Below are positions 4,558 to 50,602 of a stretch of DNA of 64,000 bases, piece by piece. Under the pieces are notes generated by a model. That model was not told the DNA's origin and searched no databases. It worked only from the letters and a program-made list of their open reading frames with translations. The DNA comes from Minutocellus sp. GHC0000111 (Eukaryota). The DNA is taken from contig OZ361258.1 in NCBI GenBank assembly GCA_977018835.1, forward strand, positions 2,108,001 to 2,172,000. The letters run 5' to 3'. Both the position numbers and the translations under genes were made by a program. Numbering within the stretch: position 1 is the first letter of the stretch; each line of letters opens with the position of its first letter.

Positions 4558-5757
4558 TCAGACCGCCTGTTGGGCCTTGTCATTCATCACCTTTTCTAGC
4601 TCTCTCATATTCCACTGCCCATCTTTTTGGATCGCCAGGGCCATCTTGAGCCCTTTTCCATTTATCGTACCTGCATAATAGCTTCCATATATTTTTTGTA
4701 GCACCTCATCGTCACTAGCTATGGCTTCATGATAGGCTGACATGCTTTTTCGCTCCTCGCTATCCATTTCTTCACAAGCTTCCTGGTAAAGTCTTAGCGC
4801 TTCTTCGAGTTCCTCTTTGCTCACTTTACCCCGATAGAAGAATTTCCAAAGGTTTTGTACCGAGAGTTCTAAACCTGCCTCGGCTGCAAGCCGAAAGTGC
4901 TTGACAGCGAGGTCAAAGTTTCGTTCACTCGCCTCAAGACAGGCGAGGTTATGACGCGCCATCACACTTCCCATTATAGCAGCAGTCTTCATGTGCTGTC
5001 TACCTTCACCTACATTTTTGACAAAACCTCCATCACCACGTTCATGCAATAGCCCAATGTAACTCATCGCATCTGCGTTGCCCAAATCAGCGGCACAACG
5101 GTAGAGCTCCAATGATTTGGGTATGTTCTGCGGCAGGCCCCACTTCCCTTCTTTGTAGCCGGCCGCCTTATGCATGATAGCTCTCATGCTTCCTTTTTGC
5201 ACATGAGTTTCCAAACGGCTGAGATATTCGGCGCCGCTCTTATGAGCGGGTGTTCTGCAGAAGGGGCAGGTCGGATCAGTCGGCGGCAGCTCTTTTTTCT
5301 TCCGCTTCTTGTTCGTGATTCTCCAGACTCGTGTGTGCTCTTCGATGCACGCGCGGCACAGAGACTTGTTGCAGCAAGTCAAATATGTAGATTCGTGTGG
5401 AGCTAGAGGCAACGGTACCATACAGACCGGACAATCCTCATTGGGCAGATGCGGCTTCCACAATTCGGGGTCATCATCAGTCTTCGTGTCACTCTTATCC
5501 GCATTGCCCCCTCCGCTCTTGAGTCTATTGTCTGCGCCGCTCTTGAGCTCCAGCTCGATGCGCTTGCACTTCTTCTTGTGCGCCCTGCGATGGTTTTTCT
5601 GGCAGGAAACATTGCAATACCAAACGGATTTGCATGCGGTGCACTTCTTGAGCGTGGTGCTGGACTTGTTGCATGAGGCACAATGCTTCATCTCGTCTCC
5701 AGCATTGGTGCTTGACGCCTCATTTTTGCTCGCGCCCGTCTCTCCGGTCTGCTTCAT
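4558..5757 (-). CDS. MYND zinc finger + RING-like + Sel1-repeat protein
   Basis: CASC...CTACKSVWYCNVSCQKNHRRAHKKKC (MYND); CPVC...CCNKSLCRAC...CPFCR (RING-like); Sel1-like repeats (AADLGNADAM, AAIMGSVMARHNL, AAEAG). Confidence 0.9.
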   Translation of the reverse strand: MKQTGETGASKNEASSTNAGDEMKHCASCNKSSTTLKKCTACKSVWYCNVSCQKNHRRAHKKKCKRIELELKSGADNRLKSGGGNADKSDTKTDDDPELWKPHLPNEDCPVCMVPLPLAPHESTYLTCCNKSLCRACIEEHTRVWRITNKKRKKKELPPTDPTCPFCRTPAHKSGAEYLSRLETHVQKGSMRAIMHKAAGYKEGKWGLPQNIPKSLELYRCAADLGNADAMSYIGLLHERGDGGFVKNVGEGRQHMKTAAIMGSVMARHNLACLEASERNFDLAVKHFRLAAEAGLELSVQNLWKFFYRGKVSKEELEEALRLYQEACEEMDSEERKSMSAYHEAIASDDEVLQKIYGSYYAGTINGKGLKMALAIQKDGQWNMRELEKVMNDKAQQAV

Positions 5758-12873: not shown

Positions 12874-15800
12874 CTACTTCTCCATCGACGCAAACATTCC
12901 ATTCCGCACGGCAAAAACGTCGTGGGGGTCGATACTTTTCTTCACGTCGAGGAGAGAACGCCGATGATGATCGGAAGTAATGCGAGACATGAAAGGGGCT
13001 CGTAGCTTGCCAACTCCATGATGGTGACTAAGAGATCCGCCACAGAGTAAAATCTCGTCTCTCGCCGCTGCCTCGATTTCTCCATATACTCGACTTGGTT
13101 CTGAGATACCTTCGTAATTCATGCAAAAATAGAAATAGACGCAAGCTCCATTATCGTAGAGCTGCGTCACTCTACTGCTGACAATCGGCTCACCTGGCAA
13201 GAAACGCTTACGGTGTTCTTGGATGATTCGCCTCTTCGTCCGGGCAATGACCTCCTCTACTCTGGACCATGGGACGAATGTTTCAAAGGATTCGGCAAGG
13301 AAGTGGTATGACATGGCAAAGTCTCGAAGGTAGGCAATAGCAAATGTCAGGTCGTAGCCCGCTCGACCAATTTTTGCCCCTGTCGAGACACCACCGTACT
13401 TCGAGGCAAGCTTACCCATTTGCTTCTGTTGGTACTTGACTTCGTCTGCTGAACACTCGTAAGCAATGGTGGCGCACACGGCCTTGTCGGCGGGGAATGC
13501 ATTTGTCCAAGTAGCGATCATCTTCATGAGATGTTCTGCGATACCTGCGAGGCCGGTGGATTCCTTTCGTAGCGCCTGGCCAAGACGGAATTGATCGTTG
13601 TCTAGCAGTCGGACGCTGGCCGGCTTGGTCGATGATGAAGCAACGTCTCGCACAAATCGAAGACCATCTTCAAACGAGGCGAAGACAATGCCGTCATGGG
13701 TGGTGATTTCGGGAAGAGGCCAGATGTTGATGACAGCGCTGGTAATAAAGCCACAGTTTCCCTCCGATCCAAAGATCAGCGAAGAGACATCCATGCCGGT
13801 GGACACGCGGCCAAAAGTTGGGTCGCCGTGATCAACGCTTTGGGAAATACGACCCATGGATCCCACCACACGAACATCACGAACAATATCTTCAATGTTG
13901 CCGTACTTGTTGCGCTTCATTCCGCTTGCCTTTGTGGCAATCCAACCTCCAAGAGTACTGAATTCAATGCTATCAGGTTCATGTCCGATGGTGTACCCAC
14001 GCTCGTTCATCTGAAGAGCAAGGTCGGCACCAGTAATACCAGCTTGAACATGCGCAAGCCCATTGGTCTCGTCGATCCATAGTACTTGATTCATCAGTTT
14101 CATATCGACGGATACAATCGGCCTTGGCTCTTGCTCGAGGGTCGGACAGTGAGTTGCATGTGAGACGTTGGTGCCACCACCAAATGGTATGAGGCACCAT
14201 TGCTCCGCTCTGGCAAGGGCCACGAGACCTTCGACTTCTCGTTCACTGTTGACCCAAATCACAGCATCTGGTAGGCGCAATCGCTCCAGCGAACCACTAC
14301 GAATCAAGTACATATCTTCTTGGGTGTGGCCAGTGCCATGACGCGCCCGGTCCTTTGCCTCGATCGATACCCGGCCTTGATCGCCACCCACAATCTCAAG
14401 CATTTTGTCTACATCACCACTTCGTAAAGCAGAATCGGCAACTTTTGGATTGTGAAGAGCTGGGGACAATGAGACTCGGCGGATATCGACGCGTAGCTGA
14501 CTCTCTTTCTCAAGAAAAGGAATAAGTCTAGGTAGCGCCACATTGCAAATCTTGTAGCGATTGCCCTTCATCACAACAGATCTGGAACCATCCTCTTGCA
14601 CTTCTGCGACAAATCCGGAATCCTGATATCCCCAAGCACCAAAAGACTCCGAAGAACCGATCCCATTGAAAGATGATGAATGGTTGCGGGGTGAATTAGG
14701 TGAAAACAAGGGTGTGACAGGACCATCGTCTGGCAAATCAAAGTCGCTACCAACGCTTGGGCGCTTTGCGGCAATTTGGAAGGATAGTGCAGCTTTGAGA
14801 AGCAGTAGAGGAGGTGAGGAGGAATCCCCCCTGGCCTGCTCCTTGACATATCTCAATGCATGTTGTTCCGACGGAGAATCAAAACCATGATCGTTCAAAT
14901 TCTTTAGAACCGTATTTACAGCGTCATCGGCCACATCAAATAGCCTCGCCAAAGCACTTTTCACTGCAGACATTTCCACATTCCAGATATCAAAGCTGCT
15001 TTCTTCGTCCATCAAATGATGGCCAAGCCACTCACTCCACCGCGGGTGCGTTGATTTGACGAGGGGAGCAAGCAGGTGGCCGAAATGGAGCATCACCGTC
15101 AGTAGCTCATTGCTGTTTCTTGAGATTGGCACGTTGCTGTGGTGCCCATCGCTGGGAAGAGGGGTCTGGATATCGTACGGCGGCCAGAATTGGCCACCAA
15201 GATTTTAATGGCGCCTCGCACAGTCTTATGCTCCAAGCACAAGGCTCTCGAAGCTGCCTCGATGTGATAGCTTGATATCAAGATTTGCTTCATCTGTTCC
15301 CTCTGGATAGTTAGCGCGATAGTGCTGGGGCTTGTTTCATCACCGTCGGCGAGTAGGATTGGCTTGGCAGCGGCAACGTGCACTCGTCCTAGGCGAATGC
15401 GGCCACATGCGACGTCCCAGAGCCATTTCCACAAAGACTGAACGCGTAGACCTGACCTCAACCTCGATATGCCCCCCTCGGCATTCTGCGACAGAGATGT
15501 CTGATCTGGAATCGCTTCATAGTTTATGGCAATTGGAAGAATTACGTGATCTCCTCCCGTCTCTTGCAAACAGCGAATAAAACCAGTCTTCGCTTTTGAG
15601 AAGCGACGGTCCCTACTACGAGTCCCCTCGATAAATACTTCAATGGACGACAAACTGTCATCAGAACAACGATTCATAACCGCTCCTCCGTCTTTGATGA
15701 TTGTGACAGCATTTCGCAGTTCAGGGTCGACCGTACCACGACCTCGTCTCACAAAGAAGGCGCCGGCATATTGCATTAACCAGCCCAAGAGAGGTACGCG

Positions 15801-18800
15801 ATAAAAGTCCTCGGCGGCTGCAATGTAGGGGATATCGAGTCCAAGCTCGGGCAAAGCGAAGGCGACGAAACTGATTATGAGAAAGTCGTATAACGATCGA
15901 TGTGTCGGGGCCAGAATGATGTGACAAGGACGCCCCGCTTCCTTCTTGGCCTTGGCGAGACAAACGACTTTGCTAATGTCAACAGTCAATTCCTCGAGCG
16001 TCATGCGAAAATCTTGACAAGGAGCCACCCTGCGAGGCGGACGAAGATGTTGCCATGAGGCTGGGAAAGGGCCCACAGTGAATCGAGCAATATCGGCCGG
16101 TGAGAGGCACCCGCGATGACCAAGTGCGAACGCGGCCTTGTACCCGCCTGGTTCCTACCATCCACAGAGGATCCTGGCTTGACCTTATTTTTGGTCCCAA
16201 TTTTCCTCACAAATTGCTCTGCTGCCAAGGCACAGTTGAGCATGTATCGCTGCCCATCGAAGCCAGGAGGGGCATCAATTTCGCTGCGAAAGTAAAAGGA
16301 CTTGTTCGTAAAGGGGAAGAACAAGAGAGGAAGATCAAGGAATGGTTGCAGCAGACGAAGATTGCGAGTGATTGGACTTCCGATCCCAAGCTTCTCCAAG
16401 AAGCCTCGAAGGAAGACAATCGGAGAAATAATGACGGCACTACGAACTTTGCGATAAGTGCCGAGCTGCAGGTTGAGCCGAGGAAACAATTTGACGGTAA
16501 ATACCATCCCAATGTACACAACCAGGCGGGACATGTATCCAAAAATGACTCCAACGTGGGTAATGGTGATGGCATAATCGATTCAAAGGAACGAAGCTGA
16601 AGCCTGGGACTTGCTATCCCAGCATGCGGTGAAGATGCGTTTGGTAGTGCGACTGTTTCGGCTTGCACTGCTCGAAATGGAGGCATCAGAAGAGGAGGGT
16701 GATGAAGTGGACAAGATATCATCACATGTCGGAAGATTGACCTTCTGGTAGCTTCCATCCTCTGTAGAAGCGGAAGAGATCGATCTCGAACCAGCAACGC
16801 TATCCGATCTCGCCAAATGGTGGCTGGAACGCTCATCCTCCTCTTTCTCTAAAGATTCAAAAGCTTTTGACAATACAAATCTGCACACGACATCGACAGG
16901 AACGAAGGGCACACTCGTCTTGCCGAAGCTCCAAAGATTGTATGGAAATTTGAGGTATAGGCAAGCAGCCGCCACAAGCGTCGATGGTTTGTAACCTGCC
17001 CAGCCCTCTCGAGGTTCTTGTACCGCAGGACCGACAATACTTGGACGGATGATGATGGTATCGCTGTTCGCATCTCGGAGGAGCAAGTGCTCGCAGATGC
17101 ATTTGCTGAAGGTGTACGTGTTGGGAAAAGCCAGATCATGCATAGCGGCGGAGGCGGAGGATTGGGTCTCCAACATCGATCGATACAGAGCCTGAGGATC
17201 ATACGGATGCATGCGATGGACCTGTTCGGGAAGAGGCGAATCTTCTGTGCCGGTTGATCCACCATGAACAAACGCTGTGCTGATGTACACAAACTTGGCA
17301 TCTTTCCTCTTGAGCTGCTTCGTCAACTGCTGGAGCGGAAGGGAAGATGTAATGTTGGATGCTGCTGCATCTTCAAGACTCTGGGTGAAGCTCACCGAAG
17401 CAGCGCAATGAAATACACGGGATATGCCAAGCTCGTTCTTTACTCGGAGCAAATCCTGACGTGACATTCCAACATCAGGTTGAGTGACATCGCCCTCGAT
17501 GACCAAAACGAGATCATCTTTCTCTTTGTCGGAGAGGAATGAAAACATATCTTCCGACAGAACCTCTGCCATCCTATCTTGAGGTGATCGAGACCCCTTT
17601 GATCGACACAAAACGACGACGCCGGCAATGCCCAATTTCTCACGATGCAAAAGAAGCTCACGAAGAAGCAGCGATCCTATAAAACCAGTCGCTCCCGTCA
17701 ATAGAACAAGATCGTCCGGGTCTGTTGTCTCAACGGACGGAACTTTCAGGGCAGCAGCATCTAGCGCACAACCATTCTGAGCGCTGCACCCGGGACCCCC
17801 GCAACTACCGATATCGTTGACCGAATACTTGCTCATGGCTGTGGAAAGTTGCATGTAGTCCTGCGAGATAAAGTATCGTAGAACCAAAACGATCATTCCA
17901 CATCCAAAAGCGCCCCACAATACAGCTTCCAATGCACCTCGGATCGAATTGAAGGGCCAAATCCAAAGCGCGGCAACAGATCCGATGCCAAGAAGAAGGA
18001 AAGCATTTCTGGTGGCGAAATGTAGGCGATTCTCCTTCATCATCTGCGCGCGAGCATTGGAAGTGCCTTCTCTTGCCTCGTTATCGCAACGCAGCACTCT
18101 CACAATCCGATGGACAAGCGACTTGGACAGAGGATAACTTGGAGCGGGCAGATAGATAATTCCTTTCATCAGCAATTCCGCCATGGGACAATCTCCGTGG
18201 ACACCATCGAGCATCGTTGCACTCGTCAGCTGCGAGGCGCCGCTTGGTGCATCGAATCCCTCACGCTCGAGCAGCTTGCTCATTCTGTTTGGGTCGCCAA
18301 CGTGAACAGGGAAAAGCCAATAGCAATGACGACTCCCCTCGACGCCCCTCGGTACACGAACACTGTGGCTGCATGATTTGACAAGTTGCTGCGATAGCGA
18401 TTGGCACCTTCTCACCCGGGCCGATACCACCGAGGCAGTGGTCGAGGCGGACGAATAAGAAAGCCTCCGATGAAGAAGCGAAAGAAGCGCCGTGCAAGGT
18501 CTCTTTCGGATTTGGCCGATTAGATCGCGCTGCTGAAATCCCCTCAGCATGCTCGTTACCGTCCGGTCGTAATCCAAGCCAAATGTTCTCATCACAAATG
18601 CAACAATCCCACACAGAGACGGATAGAACGACACGAATTGAAGGACCAAGCATTTGATGAGCTTGGCAAGGTACTGTGCATTGGTTTGCTGGCCGCTAAA
18701 GAGCTGCGCCCGCCTCATTTGATCGGCAAGGCCCTCCTTGTCCCTGCGGACGATGGCAATACCACCGCCGAGAGCCGTCGCTGTTTTGATGGTCCCAAAG

Positions 18801-20449
18801 GAATAAAAACAGATGTCGGCCACACCGCTTCTACCGGAATGCGCCAATGTGTCCTGCCGCCGCCGGCTATCACTGCCGCTTCTTCTTCCCGTGTAGCATT
18901 CGGCACGGTCCTCAATGACGTCCAAATCATGACGGTTGGCCAACGATCGGATGGCCGTCATGTCCTCGTCGGTAGTGCAGACCAATCCAAATGGATGGGT
19001 GACGAGAATGGCCACCGTCCGAGGCGTTATCGCCCTTTCTACGGCATCGACGTCCACTCCGATGCGACCCATCTCGCCACTTCCATCGTTTGCATCATCG
19101 TTTGCATCATCCTCCGCATTGTCATCACTACCACTACCACTACTACCACTTCCACACGGAAACGGAGGCGGCAGTATGTCCACGGGAACGACGCGTATGC
19201 CATGATGCTGCAGCACCTGGACCATGCCCGGTATGGTAATGCAGGGTGCCAGAATGATTTCGGATCCCGAGGGAAAGTTCCGACCGGTCAGGTAGGCATC
19301 GAGGAGGGATCGGACCGACAATCCGACGACCACCTCGTCATTTGTGGTATCGTTTGTGGTATCTTTTGCTTCACCATCACCATTTGTATCATCATTTGCA
19401 TCACCATCGCCACCTGCCCCCCAAGCCCGGGCAATGTCGTCCTCGTATCTTCTCCGCACGTCGGTCCGTGCATAATACGACCCAGACGGAAGCAGGACGT
19501 TGCACGTCATCATCCAAAGACACGTGAGGGTGGCATATCCCAAATCTCCAAGGCCAACGTCCAACCGTCCCCGGGGGATGAGCGGTCGGATGCCCGTCCA
19601 CCGCTCCAGGAGGGATGAGGTGGTGGAGGAGGAAGAGGAGGACGGCGATGACGCTGGTGGTATCTGGGCAGATGGACGATATGGCTCGTTTCGTGGCCTC
19701 GTCGTCATTGTCGGTGCAGGCCGAGGCTGGCCCCGAGGTTGAGACCGAGGCCGAGGCGGCGATGAAGGAGGCGCCGGCGGCAAATGCTCGAGGGCATCCT
19801 GAAATGTCTCCTCGGCCGTGCCGGCGGTTTGATCATCATCTCCTTCACTACTTGCACCACCGGCACCACCTCGTCCAGCACCACCTCGTCTCTCATCCAT
19901 AAATTGCCGCTCCTCAAACTTCCTGAGCAAATCCCAGCACTCCCGTCCGACGGGATGATGAGTCTGCGCGGCGGCCAGCTTCACATATTCCATCCGCGCC
20001 TCGTCGAGGGTGTAGACGTCGCACTGGGTCCAGGCATCATACTTGGCGCACGCCACCACGTGGAACACGGACGGCCGGCAGGTGGGCCGGTGGCCATGGC
20101 GGCAAGCGGTAGAATTCGGCCCCTCAACTTCGTCATCACCATCGTCATCGTCATCGTCATCGTCATCATCATCGTCTATTTCATCGTCATCGTCGTATTC
20201 GTGAGGATGGAGCCTCCCGACGGTGCAGCGCTTGTACAGCCCGTACATGCGAAGCCGGACCGAGTCGGACAGCTTGGCACTGCCTGCGTCGTCAGTGCTT
20301 TCGTCGGTATCGCCCCCACCGTTATTGTCACCACCATGACCACGGACGAGGGAAACCACGGCATCGAACAGGCCGCGGGTGGTGGTGGGAACTACAATGT
20401 CGTCGTCACCGCTGCTGGTGGTGCTGCTGCTCATGGTGCTGGCGCTCAT
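12874..20449 (-). CDS. Multidomain ether-lipid synthase: ACBP + DegT/DnrJ PLP aminotransferase + TM + fatty acyl-CoA reductase + DHAP acyltransferase + alkyl-DHAP synthase. As assembled it has a TGA at 16585-16583 and 1-nt slips at ~16008-16011 and ~15203-15206
   Basis: ACBP: LRMYGLYKRCTVG...AKYDAW...ARMEYV. Aminotransferase: VTHPFG, VIEDRAEC, FYSFGTIKTATALGGG. FAR: LLTGATGFIG, FHCAASVSF, YISTAFV, NTYTFSK, IIRPSIVG. Acyltransferase: PTHRSLYDF, GAFFVRR, FIEGTRSR. AGPS: RLPDAV, IPFGGGTNVS, GHEPDSIEFSTLGGWIAT, SGMKRNKYGNIED, GSEG, SHHHGVGK. Confidence 0.88.
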
Positions 20450-23640: not shown

Positions 23641-25460
23641 ATGTCTTCCCGCAACGACGACGAAGAGTCCCTACGTGATGGCGACTTGGCAATCGACAAG
23701 AAGGCTACCGCCGACGATGACGATGCTCAGTTCGAAGACATGCTCCGCATTTTGAAAGGCGTGATGACAGCACAATGCCCGCCGAGTGTGAACGGCGGAA
23801 AGATCGGAGCCGGAGATGCAAACACCAAGCAATCCCCCATCGTAATTCCTGGAACCGGCCTCGAAAAACCCACAATGACCCCGCCACCGGCCTCGCAGCT
23901 GGCAAGCCAGTGGATTTCCCTCGCGAGTTTTTCCAGCAATTCCTTCAGCGACAGCTCAACCACAATATTCATCAGCCAGGAAGTGAATTCGTCATCGAGG
24001 TTGACAACGCGAAGCTCAATCTTCTGGCTCAGTTGGCCGTTGTGCATGTCCATCAGGGCTGCCTTCGTGAGTGCCTCTTCGGTTTCCACCCCACTCTGGT
24101 ATCCAGGTTCGATTCGCTCTTGGAAAACCTTGAGAAATCTCTTGAGGATCACAACTTCCATAACCTCGACGGTGTCGCACGTGCGCTCGGCGTGTCCGCC
24201 GACCGCCCCATCACTCGTAGCGTCATCGATGCCCGCAACAAGGACGCCACGCCCGATCAGACAAGGAGGAAGAAGAAGAAGAAGTGCCTGCCCGCCCCAA
24301 GTAGCTTCCTCGAGTCGAAGCATCATCTCGCCTTGGGGACAATCTTGGCAGCCGCCGGCAAGCAAGCGTTTGAGAACCTGGGCTCTCCTTTCCGCCAAGT
24401 CGCCGAGAACATGGTGTTTCAGTACACGCAAGCATTCTCCGGTGCCAAAGGTACTGCCGGCCTGAAGGAGAAGGTCAAGATCCTTCGAAAGATTGGCGAG
24501 GGATCGTTCGGCAAAGTCTTCTTCGCCAAACGTGTCAACGACCTTGGCGTGGAAGAGATCGTAGTATTCAAGGTTTTTGATACTTCCACTCCCGTTCTCC
24601 TGTCCTTTGCCACGGACGAGATTGAAAGTGCCAAGTCCTTGTCGTCTTTTCCACTCTTTCCAGACGTTGAAGTCACCCACGTTAACGAATATTTCACCAT
24701 CATGATGATGGAGGTCGTCAACGGCGGTCCTCTCGGTGAAGTACACGATCAGCCCGAGGAGACGGTCCTTACCATCCTTTCCCACGTCGGGGCCTGTCTG
24801 GGCTACCTGAATGTCAGGGAGACAGCCCATCGTGACCTCAAGCCAGAGAACTTGGGGGTTATGGAATTCGTCAGCGGGGACAAGTGGTACTTCATGTTCG
24901 ACTTTGGCTGTGCCACAGGTCAGTCGACTGCCAGAACCTCGTGCGGAACGGATTATACCATGGCTCCGGAGGTTCATGCGGGAGGAAAATATAACCCATG
25001 TCCTTCAGATTGGTGGTCCACCGGAGTGAGCGCTCTCTTCCTGTCGCTTCCCATGGACAGTCTCGTTGAGCTGTACGAGGAGCGCGCGGAGTTGACCAAT
25101 CGCTTCAACCTGAAAAGCGTCGAGGCCGCGCTCAAGAAGAAGAAGTACTCCCCTTCCTCCATTAAGCTCATCACTAGTCTTCTCGCTTTTGATCCGGCCG
25201 AACGCATCACACCTCTCCAGCTCCTGAAGCACGATGCTCTCAAGGATATTCCCGATCCTTTCAAGACGATCAAGGGGATGGATAAATTCCAGTGGGTCCT
25301 CACCGTCCTCGAGGACAGGGAGACCAAGGAGAGGCAGGCCAACGAGATCGCCGATCTTACCGCAGCTCTGGAATGGTCAACGTGGAAGCAGCAGCTGGTA
25401 TGCTTCTTTTTCTCGGTTTACGTTTCGGTCCAATTGTTCCGTCTTCTTTCTTCCCCTTGA
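23641..25460 (+). CDS. Ser/Thr protein kinase with unknown N-terminal extension; frameshift near 23865; probable intron from 25397, 3' end unresolved
   Basis: KIGEGSFGKV, VFK, HRDLKPENL, DFG, CGTDYTMAPE, DWWSTGV, DPAERIT. Confidence 0.85.
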
Positions 25461-27011: not shown

Positions 27012-27190
27012 GCCGCTTTCAACCCCCATGGTGGCCGCAAAAATGGTGTCAAGATGGAGGTCAAAGATGAGGGGTCTCTTTGGGTGATAAAAATGGCGGC
27101 CGCTTTCAACCCCCATGGTGGCCGCAAAAATGGTGTCAAGATGGAGGTCAAAGATGAGGGGTCTCTTTGGGTGATAAAAATGGCGGCCGC
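27012..27190. repeat. Tandem duplication, 87-bp unit x2
   Basis: GCCGCTTTCAACCCCCATGGTGGCCGCAAAAATGGTGTCAAGATGGAGGTCAAAGATGAGGGGTCTCTTTGGGTGATAAAAATGGCG starts at both 27012 and 27099. Confidence 0.95.
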
Positions 27191-29528: not shown

Positions 29529-32091
29529 TGCATACAAAACATTCATTTACATGTATGTATTAAAATTCTACATAAACCTTTATGGAAATCGTCATCTTGG
29601 AAAGCTGCACATGCACTACTCTAGCTAGTACGTGTAGCTACACATGCAACAGTCGGCCCACGAAGCGATTTTTGCTGGTGGCTCTCACGCTCTCACTCCA
29701 GGCAGCCAGCAGACTTGTCCGACTGCGTCAACTGCTGAAAATCTCCCGCACCCGCCACGAAATCTCGGACAGACCGAGAGGCCAAAGAGCCGAAAAAAGC
29801 GATGAGAATGCAAATGAATATGAAAGGAGTGTGGCGACCGTGGAGCCACGCGTGGAGCATCGTTTGTTTTGACGAACAAATCATCGTGCATGAAGAAAAG
29901 AAAACCTTGACAAAGAATCTTCCGCCATCTCACCATGGGCAATTGGTCTCCTCAAGCACGAGAATAGGTGCTCATTACAGCGCCTTCGTATGCGGTGTGG
30001 CTAGCTATGGTGGGGAGAGGCGCCATCTCATTCTTGGCCAAGCCGTCACCACTGCTCGCCAAAGAGTCAAAAAGTGCAATTTTCTTCTCCGATATTGCAG
30101 TGGAATTCCCCGTGCTCGTGGGGCGTTCCGACCATGCACAAACACAAATGCTTCGGTCGTTGGGAACATCCTTGTTGAATGGCATCCCACCTCCGGCTGG
30201 CTCAAGGATCATGTGCGGGTAGGACCAATGCCGCCTTTGGCTTCGTTTGGTCTTTCGGCCATATATATTCACCATCGTCGTTCCATCATTGTTATCAACA
30301 GCAAGACCATTGTGTCGCTCGTCGCCGCCATCTCTGCCCACGGTGTTCTTCCTCCTCCTACGTGGCATGCAGGCTTCCATTTCCTTGATCTCCGTGTGTC
30401 ATCCGTCTGTCCCGGCCCAACCCCATGCCGAGCAAGTTACTTGACAATTGACAGCTTGGATCGATGTGATGTCCTTCTCGCGGCGATCTGCCATGGGACC
30501 GCACCCACACCATTGCGTTGTCACACATGCATGGAACATGCAGCACATCTCATCACTCCTTGGTCCGCACGACATTGATTTGCCGCCCATTCGTCCCCAA
30601 CTATGTCCAGCAGCCCATCATTGCCTTTCCTCGTATTGTTGATCAGTGATGCGATGACGACGGGCGCTACACACGATGGGCGCCTCTGTCATTATCGTCA
30701 GCAGCGGCGGCCGCTCGTCTCTTCCATGCATGTGCTGAGAGAAATGCAGAGAGAGTGTGCACATGCACACATCACACATGCGCTGACTACTACCGCCGGT
30801 CGAATTATCTATCTATCTTCGCCCGCCTATCCCGACGAGGACTGCATTTGAATAATGGGGCTTTGGCAACATTACGGCGGTGGACCTACATATACATCAT
30901 GACGTCTTCGTTTGCAACTCTTTGGCATCGATCGCCCGCAGTAGTGGTCGGACGACGCGAACGGGAGTGGACATCCACGGACTGCAGCATGTATCGAGGC
31001 GGAGAGGGCCATGCCATGGGTAGGGCGACACGTACTGATAGGTGCGTGGATAGGGGGAGCGAGACCGGAGGCCGGCCATGCGAGAGCAACGCTTGGGACA
31101 TCATCGGTCGATTTGGATGGCGGAGAATTCAAGAAGAAGGACTGCGCTTCATTGAGTCGATCGAGTCCAATATCGGAACGACGAGGCCAGCGCAGCCGAG
31201 CGGCAGGCAGGCAGAGCGCCAGCTCCAGCTCCAGCTCCAGCTCCACAAGTTAAGTTCCACCGCCGGAGGTGCCGAATTACCCCATCATTCGCGCCCACTC
31301 CGGTCCGTCGGTACATATCACTGTTTATCAAGGACGTTGCGGCAGGCGAGTTTGCCCCGCACACCACGGTCTGGCCTACAAACCACCGACGAAGCGCGGT
31401 CATTCGATAAACAAAAAATTCCCCGACGGCCGACACTTATCGGAGGAGGTACGTTCCCCCTTGTATTGTTTCCTTTTTCGTCCAATTTTTATCGGTACCG
31501 GTACGTCATAGGTCGGTATTTTGCATCAGGATGGACGGCCGGGCCAGGCCGGGCGTTGGCCGGGGGTGGGTGTGGAGACGGCAGCGGTCATGGCGGTTCC
31601 AAGTCCAGCCGGTCGTGGCGGTGGCCCTCAGCCTCTGGTCCCGTCCGTATGGCCCGTAGGTCAGAAGTCGGAAGATTGCAGTGGTAGTGACGGCAACGAC
31701 ATACTAGCTAGTACTTATGGCGGAGACTAATGATATAGTGACGATGAATGAATGATATCATACATCTTTGTCATCGTGTGCTAGTAGCACACATGATTGT
31801 GTTCGATTATGACTCACTCAGCCATTGGTTTGGTCAGTTCTGACCAAACCAATGGCGGAGGTGGCGGAGATGATGATGATATTGGTGGTGGCCGCCGTGG
31901 CAATGGTAGTGATGGACGGCGGCAAATGTGGCCATTTATCATGCATGCTCATAATTTCCCACCACTCGATTCCATCCTTCCTTCCTCACAACTTGTCGCC
32001 ATATCTCATTCATCTTCTTTTTCAACTTTTGTTACCAGGCTTGGACGACACAGAACTTCAAGTCGCCAACGAGTCTCCAACCAGTAACGCA

Positions 32092-35000
32092 ATGTCATCG
32101 CAGAGCGTCAGTTTCGATCTGGGACTGGTTCCGGTGTTGGTCAATAGAGAAGGTGGAAAGGTGACTCTTGAAAGGGGCCACAAGAGAGTTTACAAGCTCG
32201 AAGCGGACAGCTCCTCCGACTCTTGTTCCTTCACCATTGCACTTGGGCATGGCGGTCAAGGTGCGGTTTTGCTCGCCCAAGAGGAAGCCAGCGGATCGCT
32301 GGTCGCCGTCAAACAGAGCTTCGTTTCACCCGCCGATTGGGAAAAGGCGAAGCGAGAGATTGACAATCTACGAACACTATGCGGGCACCAAAATATCATC
32401 GAGATGGTGGGTCACACCGCGGAAAAGGTTCGCGTCGGCCAACCTCCACAGTCGCTGGTAAGAATTTGGATTGGCATGGAGTTCATGTCTGGTGGCGATC
32501 TAGAAAGATATCGGTGCAGACAGCCCAACTCCGTGCTGTCGGAGCCGGACGCGCAGTTGGTGCTTCACGACGCTTCGATGGGATTGCAGTACTTGCACGA
32601 GAAAAAAAATATCCTAAGTCGAAATTATTTCGCTGTAGCCCACCGTGCACATGGGTCTTTTTTCAATTCATTCGACTTCACTCAATCACTCATCTTACAG
32701 ATCTACTTATTTGACATCTCCCCCGCAAATTAATTGCATCCATCGCACTGGTCCTCCTAGCTCCACCGTGACATCAAACCAGGGAACTTGTTTGTCTTGC
32801 TTGATGGCAAAGGCAACCTCCGAGGTGTAAAGCTTGGGGACCTTGGAATCTCCAAGGAAATCCGTGTTGAGGAGGACGCTGAAAAGCAGCACACCCCTAG
32901 AATTGGCACCCAGCCATTTGCGGCCCCGGAAATCTTCGACCTCCACTGCCATGGAAGGTACGGTAAACCCGCCGACATCTTTGGCCTCGGTGCCACGTTA
33001 TTGCGGATGGGCCTGGGATCAGACTTCGAGGACGACTTCTGGGGTGGGGGAAGTTGGGAAGGTCGTGAAAAGGCCTTCACGGCATTTTTGAAGACGTTTC
33101 CGGGCGCCAGTGTCGTAAAACAAATGGTGAGAGAATATCCGAGCAATCGCCCCTCGCTCGAAGAGATTCTTTCGAGCGATTGGCTTTTGTCAATGACGCG
33201 CGACCTCATCCGGGGTCATCGCGCCAGTATCACGCAATTGGAAACTTTTTTGCCCGAGGGCTAACACCGACCACGCCACCAACGCTACGGAACTAGAGAA
33301 GCTCCATGCGGATATGGCTGGGCTCCGATTGGAGCTGGAACAGGAGAAAGAGGAGAAGTCCCGGCTCCAAGGGCAGCTGACCCAGGTAAAGCAAGAATCC
33401 GACCAGCAGAAGGCGATGTTGAAGGCCCGTGATGATGAGATTGCGATGCTTCGAAACCAAAAGGACGAGCACGCGCTTGGTCGAAATGCCGCCGGGGCCA
33501 ACGATGAGGAGAACGGATCAATCGATGCTGATGAGAATGGGGCAAAGGTAAGCAGTCGCAGTCTGGGCACATGTGAAGTTATGTCACCTGGCTGTCCATG
33601 TGTGTTATTCGCCACGATACATTGTTGGCACATGAATCCCTACATGCTTGTATCTCACATTTGGCTCCGCCATACGTTTACGATCTGAAGCAGCTTTCGG
33701 GAAGACCTAACAGTTTGCAGCTCCCCGGACAGGGTATTGCCGACGATGGATTGGATGGATCGGGTAAGGACGAGGAGAGGGGAGTCTCAGATGATGATAC
33801 GGCCGAGAACGAGGTGAGAAGTTGGTGCCACGTTTGCCTTTTGCACTATCGATCATGGTGTCGTATGTACCTAATGGAGGTACTCTCCCTTCATCTAATT
33901 TTTGTGGTTTCGCCTCCGCATGCATGAACATGCATTCGCTTAGCAGCAGCAGCCTGCACACCCTCATAGCCTAAACCTTCGGTCTAAGAAGAATAACAAG
34001 ACCGATGGGGATCAGAAGGACAATGAGGGAGATGGTGGCGGTGATGATGACGAGAATGACGATGATGATAAGAGCAAGAAAAAGAAGGCTCGCAAGGCCA
34101 AGGGCGGCACCAAGGCGCAGGTAAGACAAAGTTATACCAGCATCGTTTATTCGTTTGAATTATGTCATCGCTCGACAACCAATACCCATTCTCACATCAC
34201 TTTACTCTCAACTCTTCCAAATATTTTGAGCAGACCAAAAAAATCCCCTCTCCGGCCAAGGATGCAGCTGGACCTATTGGAAAGGCAGGGCAGGAGGGTG
34301 CCAGTCAAGATGAGCGCACTGGCGACGCCGAGGTACGTGATGTGCATGTAATCAGAATGGACAACTTTCAATACTTGCAATGCCGGACAATACATTTATT
34401 TGACTCGTCTCATCCCCTTTCCATTCATTATTCACATTTCCTTTTTTGCATTACTAACACATATTGTTGATTCGCCTTACTTGCTTACACAAAACAAAAC
34501 TTCGCGCGGAAAGCAGGTTGGAGAGGAGGAAGAAGAAGAGGAAGAGAAGAGCCGTCCTCCTACCCCCTCAGCTCCCGCCAATAGCGCCCGGATCGATGAT
34601 CTACTTGAGCGGCTTGGATACGATACGCCGGAACTAGTGAAACAATTTCGAATTTTTCACGATACTCTCGGTAGACTCAAGACCGGTGCCGCCAAACATG
34701 GGGACAAATACCTCGAGCAATACCCCGACTCTGCTCAAATCGATCAAATTAAGTTGGCCAGAGACAGCTTCCTTCAGCTCTGTGACGAAGCCGGTGGTCC
34801 CTACCAATCCAATCGTCCCGTCTTTCGATTCGTCAGTGCCCCCTGGCTCGCTGCTGGTGTGGCCCGACTCCGCCGCGCGATTCTCAAACGCCGTGATTAC
34901 TCTGACGTGCCCAAGATCTCATCGGATTTGTATGAGTTGTTCCTTGGCCAAGAAGACTACCTCCAGACCAGACTCCTCGCCAAGAAAGCGAAGGCGAAAA

Positions 35001-49016: not shown

Positions 49017-50399
49017 TTAGAGAGAAAACAACTCATCGGTGGTGCCCTGCTCGAAGTAGATCCCAACAATGGCAATCAATGTGTTGAGGATGGACACAAC
49101 GCCAGAGTTACTACCGGTAGATCTACTCCCTCCTCCTTCTCTCTTCATGATCGTCCCATCCCCATTGTCGTCCCCACCCCTAGTGGCCAAAATCCCCACC
49201 CTGATCCCAGCCCTTCGAATGCAGCACTCCCTCAACAATCGTCGCAGCATCGCGGCATCATCCCGGTGCAGCGGCTTGGCCAGCCGGGCCAGCAAGCCGT
49301 ACAGCCACCGGGCCCGACTGGTCGTCATGGCATACGTGGTATGGTTGTAGTTGCCCACCTCCTCACCGCCGCCGTCAACGCCATCGCATACGTACGACAC
49401 GTGATGGGCCAGGACCCTCCGGACCATGACCTGATCCATCTGACAGAGCAGCGCCGTGCTCGGCGGATGGCCGGCCGCGGGTATGTTGTCCCGCCACGGT
49501 TCCATCTTTTTGGTGGATATGCCATCCATCATATTGCTCTCCTCGTCGTCATCTTCATCATGGTCATCATCCTGATAATACCCCTGCGCCTCGTCCCTGC
49601 CCAGACAAAACACGTGCCAATCCTCCCGTGCCCTCATGGGCGGCACCGGCATTCTGCTGCTACTGCTATTACTGCCCACCCCGCTTCCTGGTTGCTTCTT
49701 GCTCCCAATCTGTCCCTCGACGCACGCATCGAGATAAAGCCGCAGCTTGGAGAAGTCGTAGAGAGTGGCGTCGATCCAGGACGATGAGGAGGAGGCTGAT
49801 GCATATGCCGATGCTGGCAGATGAGCGGCAGACGGAGGGCGGGGCAGGTCTGTCCGATGCGACAGCAGATAGGCCAGGGAGCCGCTGATTCCGACGTTGT
49901 TGGATGGCAGAGGCTGCTTGGTCGTACTGGCACTGGCACTGGCACATGAATTGCCGGTCGTCCCTGCTGTTGTCAAGGAGGATGAGGCGGTTGCATCGCG
50001 GACAGGCTCGGCAATCTCCCCCTCTTCCTCTTCGTCGTACTCGTCCTCTCCGTCTTCTTGTGTCTGCTGACCATTATTTCCATCACCATCATTTCCACTA
50101 TTCGCACCGGCACCATCGCCACCACCCGCCGCCGCCGCGACAAAGACGTCGCCCAACCCCCGCGCTTCCTCGTGGACCCGACCGATGAACTCCATGGCCG
50201 ACATGGCGCCGAGGTCCTCGATGCGTTGTTTGCCGGACATCATCGTCATTGTGGAGCCGGCGGTATTATTCATATCGCCATAATCGCCATCATTGTTATC
50301 ATTGCTGTCGGCGGCATTATCATCGCCACGCTGCTGCCGGTCGCGACGGCGCTTCCTGGAGCGGGAGGGCGGGAGGGGAAGGCACGGTTGGAGCGACAT
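49017..50399 (-). CDS. GEMIN2: Gem-associated protein 2 (SMN complex, SIP1/Brr1 family)
   Basis: AMEFIGRVHEEARGLGDVFVA, DFSKLR, PPMRAREDWHVFC, PSTALLCQMDQ, RWLYGLLARLAKPL, LRRLLREC, LNTLIAIVGIYFEQ. Confidence 0.88.
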   Translation of the reverse strand: MSLQPCLPLPPSRSRKRRRDRQQRGDDNAADSNDNNDGDYGDMNNTAGSTMTMMSGKQRIEDLGAMSAMEFIGRVHEEARGLGDVFVAAAAGGGDGAGANSGNDGDGNNGQQTQEDGEDEYDEEEEGEIAEPVRDATASSSLTTAGTTGNSCASASASTTKQPLPSNNVGISGSLAYLLSHRTDLPRPPSAAHLPASAYASASSSSSWIDATLYDFSKLRLYLDACVEGQIGSKKQPGSGVGSNSSSSRMPVPPMRAREDWHVFCLGRDEAQGYYQDDDHDEDDDEESNMMDGISTKKMEPWRDNIPAAGHPPSTALLCQMDQVMVRRVLAHHVSYVCDGVDGGGEEVGNYNHTTYAMTTSRARWLYGLLARLAKPLHRDDAAMLRRLLRECCIRRAGIRVGILATRGGDDNGDGTIMKREGGGSRSTGSNSGVVSILNTLIAIVGIYFEQGTTDELFSL

Positions 50400-50602
50400 G
50401 GCGTTTTGATGTGACTTGTGGTGCAAACTCGCTCATTCTGGCAGGATCAGGCGGTGTGTACTCTTGTCAGTGTTTCCGGGTTTTTTCTGGCTTCGCTTGC
50501 TTGCTTGCTTTGCCTTGCTTGAGCTCTTGCGGCTTGCTTTCGCCCTCACAATTCGAGCAAACGCCACCACACGACATCAACTGATCAACACAATCAACCA
50601 TC

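What the first reader, a model, noticed from the sequence alone, without database searches (positions are those of the whole stretch)
18095..19585. DegT-type aminotransferase embedded in the ether-lipid synthase suggests serinol-backbone (2-amino) ether lipids
Seen: a fold-type-I PLP domain in the same uninterrupted ORF as ACBP and FAR, with the D-x-A motif (VIEDRAEC) and the Schiff-base Lys motif (SFGTIK, ~18785). No additional ketoreductase domain was recognised in the fusion. Established: DegT/DnrJ/EryC1/StrS enzymes aminate keto groups; AGPS yields 1-alkyl-DHAP, whose C2 ketone is normally reduced; Bradyrhizobium RtxA transaminates DHAP to serinol phosphate. Inference: this domain may aminate alkyl- or acyl-DHAP to 1-O-alkyl-serinol-phosphate, a precursor of ceramide-like N-acyl ether lipids. 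Alternatively it may aminate the FAR aldehyde intermediate to a fatty amine.
Basis: inference. Interest (0 to 1): 0.8.

Follow-up and report, generated by a model that had tools for sequence, protein, structure and literature searches.

The report
Amino-ether lipid branch in diatom megaenzyme
A diatom gene joins a vitamin-B6 aminotransferase-type domain to the three enzymes that start ether-lipid synthesis, and its uncharacterised relatives in invertebrates and bacteria point to the same pathway, so it likely puts an amino group where ether lipids normally carry a hydroxyl, which would give ceramide-like lipids whose synthesis we did not find described; the copy in this window is broken.

Summary
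Observation confirmed. The DegT-like domain (18083-19585, minus strand) keeps its Asp and Lys and lies in one ORF with ACBP and FAR. Acyltransferase and AGPS follow after a stop and two frameshifts; other sequencing runs show the intact letter at all three, so this allele is broken. The DegT-FAR-acyltransferase-AGPS chain is conserved (36 of 78 long hits, including named diatoms); the Lys is kept in 103 of 103 fusions.

The domain forms a distinct subfamily with a hydrophobic insert that sugar aminotransferases lack. Independent links to DHAP lipids: 48 of 57 named eukaryotic stand-alone relatives end in a peroxisomal signal; two Opitutaceae operons read FAR-acyltransferase-HAD-AGPS-DegT plus a ceramide-synthase-like GNAT, both missing from two sister operons; four bacteria have acyltransferase, DegT and a GlpD paralogue together.

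Best reading (0.6): it aminates C2 of alkyl- or acyl-DHAP to O-alkyl/acyl-serinol phosphate. No activity or product was shown, and 45 of 50 bacterial carriers had no AGPS match. No paper on it was found; the scan noted it twice before on other DNA.

The parts
16583..20449 (-). ORF of 1288 aa: ACBP, DegT-like domain, hydrophobic linker, FAR; ends at a premature TGA
19976..20254 (-). Acyl-CoA-binding (ACBP) domain, split by an acidic loop
   Evidence: Pfam PF00887 E 2e-9; motif positions
18083..19585 (-). DegT-like PLP fold-type-I domain of a distinct subfamily (the finding)
19307..19321 (-). LSVRS motif, in place of the N-(S/N)-G-T motif of sugar aminotransferases; Arg invariant in both alignments
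18896..18916 (-). IEDRAEC with the conserved Asp (18910-18908); other runs read Cys for Arg
18785..18802 (-). SFGTIK with the Schiff-base Lys (18787-18785)
18536..18691 (-). Subfamily-specific hydrophobic helical insert (about 45-50 aa) ending in RGF, absent from canonical DegT controls
17867..18007 (-). Two hydrophobic, membrane-like segments between the PLP domain and FAR
   Evidence: 1 or 2 such segments in 85 of 85 fusions with both flanking motifs
16877..17701 (-). Fatty acyl-CoA reductase catalytic domain (TGATGFIG, YTFSK)
16583..16585 (-). Premature TGA at an invariant Trp; runs X6, X8 and X12 read TGG
16001..16582 (-). In-frame continuation behind the stop, up to the frameshift near 16007
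   Evidence: runs X1, X2, X3 and X8 hold both the intact and the shifted form
15202..16010 (-). PlsB/GNPAT-type acyltransferase (HRSLYD), ending at the frameshift near 15202
   Evidence: Pfam PF01553 E 3.8e-18; best NCBIfam match PlsB, below cut-off
12874..15201 (-). Linker and alkyl-DHAP synthase (AGPS) with SHHHG
   Evidence: 466 bits to mammalian AGPS 4bby over 12901-14643

Best explanation
The domain belongs to a distinct DegT-like subfamily and is fused to FAR, a DHAP acyltransferase and alkyl-DHAP synthase; it likely acts as a PLP aminotransferase on the C2 ketone of lipid-linked DHAP, which would turn 1-O-alkyl-DHAP (or acyl-DHAP where AGPS is absent) into 1-O-alkyl(acyl)-serinol 3-phosphate. 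Proposed line in the intact protein: ACBP holds acyl-CoA; FAR makes the fatty alcohol; the acyltransferase makes acyl-DHAP; AGPS swaps acyl for alkyl (these three steps follow from family membership with catalytic motifs present); then the PLP domain aminates C2 instead of a reductase reducing it (inferred). AGPS needs the ketone (recalled mechanism), so amination would come last. N-acylation and dephosphorylation would then give a ceramide-like amide-ether lipid (inferred from the GNAT and HAD genes in the bacterial operon; no such enzyme is in the diatom fusion). The allele in this window cannot make the acyltransferase or AGPS parts.
For: Fusion conserved: 36 of 78 long hits carry DegT, FAR, acyltransferase and both AGPS domains, 30 also ACBP; named ones include Nitzschia inconspicua and Skeletonema marinoi. 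Lys in 103 of 103 fusions over 1250 aa; FAR YxxxK and acyltransferase HxxxxD in 45 of 45 over 2100 aa, SHHHG in 38 of 45. Stand-alone relatives in molluscs, annelids, nemerteans, echinoderms, hemichordates, lancelets, cnidarians and others form one clade with some unnamed sequences (SH-aLRT 99); 48 of 57 named eukaryotic ones end in a canonical PTS1, against 3 of the 120 hits, all 3 in that clade. Acyl- and alkyl-DHAP are made in the peroxisome (PMC13256971 passages). Opitutaceae: 2 of 201 genomes have the gene, both directly behind AGPS in a FAR-acyltransferase-HAD-AGPS operon. G095 has the same operon running straight into the deacetylase gene; G050 and G504 carry a block of DegT, FAAL-ACP, ketosynthase and GNAT at that place. 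Relatives of that GNAT lie between a class I/II PLP gene and an NAD-dependent oxidoreductase/epimerase in Rubrobacter and Streptomyces, the Spt-bCerS-CerR gene set of bacterial ceramide synthesis (PMC11087976 passages). G504 has a second GNAT copy beside an Spt-like gene. That AGPS is closest to Dictyostelium AGPS, the diatom one to mammalian AGPS, so the link looks independent. Acyltransferase, DegT and GlpD cluster in L035, L044, L053, L069; this GlpD is a separate paralogue (415-504 bits against 221 or less for other copies) that lies beside AGPS in G048. DegT-GlpD, acyltransferase-DegT and DegT-FAD oxidase fusions exist. Hydrophobic insert: peak hydropathy 1.41 in 24 subfamily members against 0.62 in 39 canonical controls. 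DHAP transamination to serinol phosphate is known chemistry (RtxA, PMC3222319 part 1; Cj1437, PMC11800397 passage).
Against: No activity, substrate or product was shown. 45 of 50 bacterial carrier genomes had no AGPS match at E 1e-30, and one of the 5 matches is weak; many are incomplete MAGs. Only 9 of the 80 loci had a lipid- or glycerol-type neighbour or fusion among the ORFs scanned, while 8 had a glutathione S-transferase gene upstream. The AGPS-DegT-GNAT block rests on two genomes of one family, probably one event, and both also hold Spt-like genes elsewhere, so the GNAT could serve ordinary ceramide synthesis. The three tunicate relatives (Ciona, Phallusia, Clavelina) lack PTS1 although tunicates are the known source of serinolipids. 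Only 1 of 103 fusions ends in PTS1. The aromatic residue that stacks on PLP in the sugar enzymes is mostly Ile or Val here. No report of such lipids in diatoms came up (no papers; listing only).
Confidence: 0.6

Rival explanations
1. The domain aminates free DHAP to serinol phosphate, like RtxA or Cj1437. The serinol phosphate is acylated afterwards (N-acyl serinol) or used as a head group, so the ether chain is not on the amino backbone.
For: All shown precedents use free DHAP. Acyltransferase-DegT-GlpD clusters fit glycerol-3-P to DHAP to serinol-P to N-acyl; a glycerol-kinase-like gene lies upstream in L016. 45 of 50 bacterial carriers had no AGPS match.
Against: The hydrophobic insert suggests a membrane or lipid substrate. 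The GlpD partner is the paralogue that lies beside AGPS in G048, not the housekeeping type. Fusion or adjacency with two different AGPS lineages is hard to explain if the product bypasses AGPS.
Confidence: 0.16
2. The PMP form condenses with alkyl-DHAP and eliminates the C3 phosphate, as the DegT-fold dehydrases ColD and E1 eliminate a hydroxyl, giving a deoxy ketone and then alkyl-propanediol (diol) lipids with no nitrogen kept.
For: ColD and E1 share the fold. The active site departs from the sugar transaminases (SVRS, no aromatic stacker). Phosphate next to the ketimine is a good leaving group (inference).
Against: ColD and E1 have His in place of the Lys (recalled); Lys is kept in 103 of 103 fusions. 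A HAD phosphatase and an N-acyltransferase-like gene in the operon fit a retained phosphate and amine.
Confidence: 0.07
3. The domain aminates the fatty aldehyde intermediate of FAR to a fatty amine.
For: It lies next to FAR in the chain; FAR is in the Opitutaceae operon, where a GNAT could acylate a fatty amine.
Against: FAR was not seen among the scanned neighbours of the acyltransferase-DegT-GlpD clusters or in the GlpD and FAD-oxidase fusions, whose partners make a C2 ketone. [quoted passage not shown]
Confidence: 0.06
4. The link to lipid synthesis is real but the job is different: reverse (salvage) deamination of amino lipids back to DHAP lipids, amination of a lipid-linked sugar, or a non-catalytic binding role.
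For: Transamination is reversible. Seven long hits are fusions with a FAD oxidase whose tested member scores best against sugar-lactone oxidase and DprE1 models. Most bacterial copies have no telling neighbour. A null allele persists in this diatom.
Against: Fusion into a biosynthetic chain and co-insertion with an acylation module argue for synthesis; catalytic residues are invariant. No glycosyltransferase or nucleotide-sugar gene recurs as a direct neighbour in the loci scanned.
Confidence: 0.11

Closest known systems
DegT/DnrJ/EryC1/StrS sugar aminotransferases (PerA, ArnB, WecE, DesV; Pfam PF01041)
   Same: Fold, Asp and Lys positions, Pfam score above cut-off.
   Different: 15-21% identity; SVRS for N-(S/N)-G-T; Ile/Val for the aromatic stacker; hydrophobic insert in place of the GxNxR segment; far below every NCBIfam cut-off, e.g. 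37 bits against 631 for ArnB; lipid rather than nucleotide-sugar context.
FARAT (FAR-GNPAT fusion of Tetrahymena, Dictyostelium and others) with AGPS
   Same: FAR followed by a PlsB/GNPAT-type acyltransferase; AGPS at 466 bits to the mammalian enzyme.
   Different: AGPS, ACBP and a PLP domain are in the same chain. A 2026 survey of these enzymes (PMC13012113; main-text term search and 12 of 15 supplements) has no 'aminotransferase', 'diatom' or PF01041 and lists a 554-aa Phaeodactylum AGPS alone.
DHAP aminotransferases RtxA (Bradyrhizobium) and Cj1437 (Campylobacter jejuni)
   Same: The proposed chemistry: C2 ketone of DHAP to serinol phosphate.
   Different: They use free DHAP for rhizobitoxine or capsule. 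Their sequences were not compared here; that they belong to other aminotransferase classes is recalled.
Bacterial ceramide synthesis (Spt, bCerS, CerR)
   Same: A GNAT whose relatives sit in Spt-like/GNAT/epimerase clusters travels with the DegT-like gene in two Opitutaceae operons.
   Different: The amino backbone would come from alkyl-DHAP, not from serine plus acyl-CoA. Identity of the GNAT with bCerS rests on gene context and on a recalled annotation ('dATP pyrophosphohydrolase'), not on a direct sequence comparison.
Tunicate serinolipids (didemniserinolipids, shishididemniols, siladenoserinols)
   Same: Natural lipids with a serinol unit (review passages: PMC6264260, PMC7344992, PMC12228663). 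That the serinol is ether-linked is recalled.
   Different: Secondary metabolites with bicyclic ketal chains. No biosynthesis was mentioned in the passages read; no didemnid sequence was tested; the three tunicate relatives seen lack PTS1.

Membership tests
DegT/DnrJ/EryC1/StrS superfamily (PF01041) | Profile score above the curated cut-off | tested here: met
   56.3 bits against 19.8
DegT/DnrJ/EryC1/StrS superfamily (PF01041) | Fold-type-I structure closest to sugar aminotransferases | tested here: met
DegT/DnrJ/EryC1/StrS superfamily (PF01041) | Asp at the pyridine nitrogen and Schiff-base Lys | tested here: met
   aligned to PerA and 7n63; invariant
Named nucleotide-sugar aminotransferases (ArnB, WecE, PseC, PerA) | NCBIfam cut-offs | tested here: not met
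   best 36.9 bits against 631
Named nucleotide-sugar aminotransferases (ArnB, WecE, PseC, PerA) | N-(S/N)-G-T motif, aromatic PLP stacker, GxNxR segment | tested here: not met
   SVRS, Ile/Val, hydrophobic insert with RGF
PLP aminotransferase (activity) | PLP binding and amino-group transfer | not testable with these tools
   needs an assay
Ether-lipid initiation enzymes (FAR, GNPAT, AGPS) | Domains with catalytic motifs | tested here: met
Ether-lipid initiation enzymes (FAR, GNPAT, AGPS) | Intact reading frame in this window | tested here: not met
   one stop, two frameshifts; intact letters in other runs
Ether-lipid initiation enzymes (FAR, GNPAT, AGPS) | Peroxisomal location | tested here: inconclusive
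   PTS1 in 48 of 57 named stand-alone relatives but 1 of 103 fusions, many cut short by gene calling; membrane-like linker
RtxA/Cj1437-type DHAP aminotransferases | Sequence orthology | not tested
   no tool gave their sequences
bCerS (for the bacterial GNAT partner) | Gene context and sequence orthology to Caulobacter bCerS | tested here: inconclusive
   context of relatives fits; direct comparison not made

The most novel reading that the evidence does not exclude
A widespread, overlooked lipid class exists: ceramide mimics built on 1-O-alkyl-serinol, made by one aminotransferase subfamily that branches off ether-lipid synthesis in diatoms (as a five-domain megaenzyme), in the peroxisomes of many invertebrate phyla, and in scattered bacteria. 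O-tetradecyl- and O-hexadecyl-serinol have the same formulas as d17:0 and d19:0 sphinganine, so lipidomics could have filed them as odd-chain ceramides. The enzyme would also be a candidate source of the serinol unit of tunicate serinolipids.
Probability: 0.4. Interest if true: 0.9.

Novelty: new variant of a known kind. Interest (0 to 1): 0.76.

Why it matters
Ether-lipid synthesis is taught as passing through reduction of alkyl-DHAP. A conserved amination branch would mean a third backbone beside glycerol and sphingoid bases in diatoms, which are major primary producers, and in many invertebrates. It gives a function to a conserved, unannotated gene with a peroxisomal signal in molluscs, echinoderms, lancelets and cnidarians, and it makes the origin of serinol lipids testable with one recombinant enzyme and 15N lipidomics.

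Tried and rejected
No whole genome is held for the window, so a separate alkyl-DHAP reductase or a second copy could not be sought. Apparent four-domain forms without AGPS (1300-1700 aa) were not taken as a real class: many end inside the acyltransferase at or just after KTG(F/L)LR, which fits gene calls cut at an intron (inferred). An intron or TGA recoding at 16583 was rejected: no joints in the runs and TGG in X6, X8, X12. RNA-library contigs cover the gene (X3, X4, X8) but contigs cannot show transcription. The metagenome scan was poor: 6 of 64 loci were strong matches, none of the five whose neighbours were scanned had a telling one; the other 58 supplied the 39 canonical controls. Phylum-wide co-occurrence tests had too few carriers: 1 of 251 Verrucomicrobiota, 10 of 201 Planctomycetota (neighbours not examined), 1 of 201 in the phylum of G022 for both DegT and the GlpD paralogue. 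The GNAT family is in 15 of 50 carriers and 21 of 201 Opitutaceae; these sets differ in phylum and are not a fair test. No subfamily match in plasmids at E 1e-25. The tree is the quick one (SH-aLRT only, 85 chosen rows, midpoint root) and supports no donor or order of events. The hydropathy test compares related sequences, so its p-value (2e-8) overstates independence. The wide structural search was not run. Paper searches: 2 papers, listing only, neither on topic by title; none; listings; passages read as cited. The original bCerS paper was not held; PMC10331486 passages gave only the bCerS accession. Subscription journals, and supplements 13-15 of PMC13012113, were not seen.
Full report
Observation. 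The window is eukaryotic and, by its closest named homologues, a diatom. On the minus strand an ORF at 20449..16583 encodes ACBP, a DegT_DnrJ_EryC1 domain and a FAR domain. AlphaFold models of the window domain and of a bacterial relative match sugar aminotransferase structures at 15-21% identity. The domain is real and far beyond chance (Pfam E 4e-15; 229 representatives at E 1e-30 or better).

State of the gene. Homologues run on through an acyltransferase and AGPS without a gap. In the window a TGA stands where 94 of 95 aligned homologues have Trp, and single-base frameshifts follow near 16007 and 15202. Runs X6, X8 and X12 read TGG; at 15202 X2, X3, X6, X8 and X12 have the extra base, X1 lacks it and X4 shows both; at 16007 X1, X2, X3 and X8 (four studies) hold both forms, X4 and X12 only the intact one. 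A database protein (P0200) with several other differences ends at the same stop and shares the EDRAE variant. The simplest reading is a decayed allele beside an intact one; phasing was not possible. The function question therefore concerns the family, not this allele.

The fusion is conserved. Of 78 long hits, 36 carry DegT, FAR, acyltransferase and both AGPS domains, 30 of them also ACBP; named ones include Nitzschia inconspicua, Skeletonema marinoi and Discostella. The Lys is present in 103 of 103 fusions over 1250 aa. FAR and acyltransferase motifs are in 45 of 45 proteins over 2100 aa, the AGPS histidines in 38 of 45, and 85 of 85 testable fusions have one or two hydrophobic segments between the PLP domain and FAR. 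The AGPS part scores 466 bits against the mammalian structure.

A distinct subfamily. Relatives share SVRS, I-P-(G/D)-M, EDCA(Q/E), SFG-IK and RGF. Against 39 canonical DegT proteins taken from loci L093-L150, the 24 subfamily members aligned have an Arg in place of the phosphate-loop Thr, no aromatic PLP stacker, and an insert of about 45-50 residues in place of the GxNxR segment, with peak hydropathy 1.41 against 0.62; it is helical in both models. None reaches an NCBIfam cut-off, and the Atlas gives only generic names. I infer a membrane-touching surface for a lipid substrate and, less surely, an Arg for a phosphate.

Context in animals. Stand-alone relatives occur in molluscs, annelids, nemerteans, echinoderms, hemichordates, lancelets, tunicates, cnidarians, tardigrades and a centipede; no vertebrate, insect or nematode name is among the 120 rows listed of 240. 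48 of 57 named eukaryotic ones end in SKL or a close variant; among the 120 mostly bacterial hits only 3 do, and those fall in the same clade. The peroxisome is where DHAPAT and AGPS make alkyl-DHAP (PMC13256971, passages). The three tunicate proteins lack the signal.

Context in bacteria. 469 stretches in the genome collection encode a relative; 80 were fetched. Most have no telling neighbour, 8 have a glutathione S-transferase upstream, and 9 have a lipid- or glycerol-type neighbour or fusion among the ORFs scanned. Four have acyltransferase, DegT and GlpD together (L035, L044, L053, L069). This GlpD is a separate paralogue, and in G048 it lies beside AGPS. The same partners occur as fusions. 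In Opitutaceae, 4 of 201 genomes have a Dictyostelium-like AGPS at 55% identity or more, and 2 have the DegT-like gene, both directly behind it. G050 and G504 read FAR, acyltransferase, HAD, AGPS, DegT, FAAL-ACP (opposite strand), ketosynthase, GNAT, deacetylase; G095 reads FAR, acyltransferase, HAD, AGPS, deacetylase; G540 has other genes behind AGPS. Relatives of the GNAT are annotated 'dATP pyrophosphohydrolase' or GNAT and sit between a class I/II PLP gene and an NAD-dependent oxidoreductase/epimerase, or among lipid kinase, LptF/G and epimerase genes; one relative has another context. This matches the Spt, bCerS, CerR set (PMC11087976, passages). So the aminotransferase arrives together with a likely N-acyltransferase. 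Against this, the block is two related genomes, all four genomes hold Spt-like genes, and 45 of 50 carriers tested (50 of the 80 loci) had no AGPS match.

Mechanism. Shown: domain order, motifs, conservation, signals and gene neighbours. From established knowledge: FAR, GNPAT and AGPS give alkyl-DHAP, whose ketone is normally reduced by a separate SDR; DegT enzymes aminate ketones; DHAP can be transaminated to serinol phosphate (PMC3222319 part 1 of 3; PMC9283133 passages; PMC11800397 passage). Inferred: the substrate is lipid-linked DHAP; amination follows AGPS; N-acylation and dephosphorylation follow. In bacteria without AGPS the same chemistry on acyl-DHAP would give acyl-serinol phosphate. 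I put 0.6 on this, 0.16 on free DHAP, 0.07 on elimination, 0.06 on fatty amine and 0.11 on other roles.

Comparison and novelty. It is a member of the DegT superfamily but not of any named sugar aminotransferase family. The partner enzymes are known; the combination was not found in the library searched nor in a 2026 survey of these enzymes (PMC13012113; term searches in the main text and 12 of 15 supplements). Serinol lipids are known from tunicates (review passages) and N-palmitoyl serinol from a sponge. Two earlier notes of this scan reached the same idea on other genomes; I saw them after forming my reading and they are not independent evidence.

Verdict. A real and well-conserved feature, a new variant of known parts that points to an undescribed lipid branch. 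Interest 0.76. The product is unproven and the allele in this window is broken.

Noticed in passing
window 15202, 16007, 16583: A broken allele of this gene seems to persist beside an intact one: both forms at 16007 in runs of four studies.
   Followed up: partly
window 18864-18907: Block of 13 listed substitutions in 44 bases against all four runs laid, in the loop after the conserved Asp; P0200 has the window's version.
   Followed up: partly
window 19084-19111: 12-base tandem repeat in an acidic loop; one unit is missing in run X2 and in P0200.
   Followed up: partly
L011, L020, L023, L026, L029, L031, L033, L050 upstream of the match: A glutathione S-transferase gene lies directly upstream of the DegT-like gene in betaproteobacteria and two cyanobacteria; unexplained.
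   Followed up: no
P0124-P0126, P0128-P0131; L075:9149-11812; L027:8513-9952: DegT-like domain fused to, or behind, a FAD oxidase of DprE1/lactone-oxidase type, a possible oxidase-plus-transaminase pair that swaps OH for NH2.
   Followed up: partly
L174:3-13029 (G540): Type I polyketide synthase with a terminal reductase domain, then acyltransferase, AGPS, cyclopropane-synthase-like methyltransferase and a second acyltransferase: a likely PKS-fed ether-lipid operon in an Opitutaceae genome.
   Followed up: no
P0133, P0135, P0154, P0061: A second clade of DegT-FAR-acyltransferase-AGPS fusions without ACBP groups with a Symbiodinium protein rather than with the diatom clade.
   Followed up: no
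L179:5701-9068; L181:4721-8003: Spt-like, GNAT and epimerase three-gene clusters on plasmids of Rubrobacter radiotolerans and a Streptomyces, a possible ceramide pathway in Actinomycetota.
   Followed up: no
window 27012-27190: Exact 87-base tandem duplication (2.1 copies) in a region without a Pfam match scanned.
   Followed up: no
window 23775-25460 (+), 31825-32733 (+), 4558-5757 (-), 49017-50426 (-): Ordinary eukaryotic neighbours: two protein kinases, a MYND-Sel1 protein, a SIP1/Gemin2-like protein; none lipid-related.
   Followed up: no
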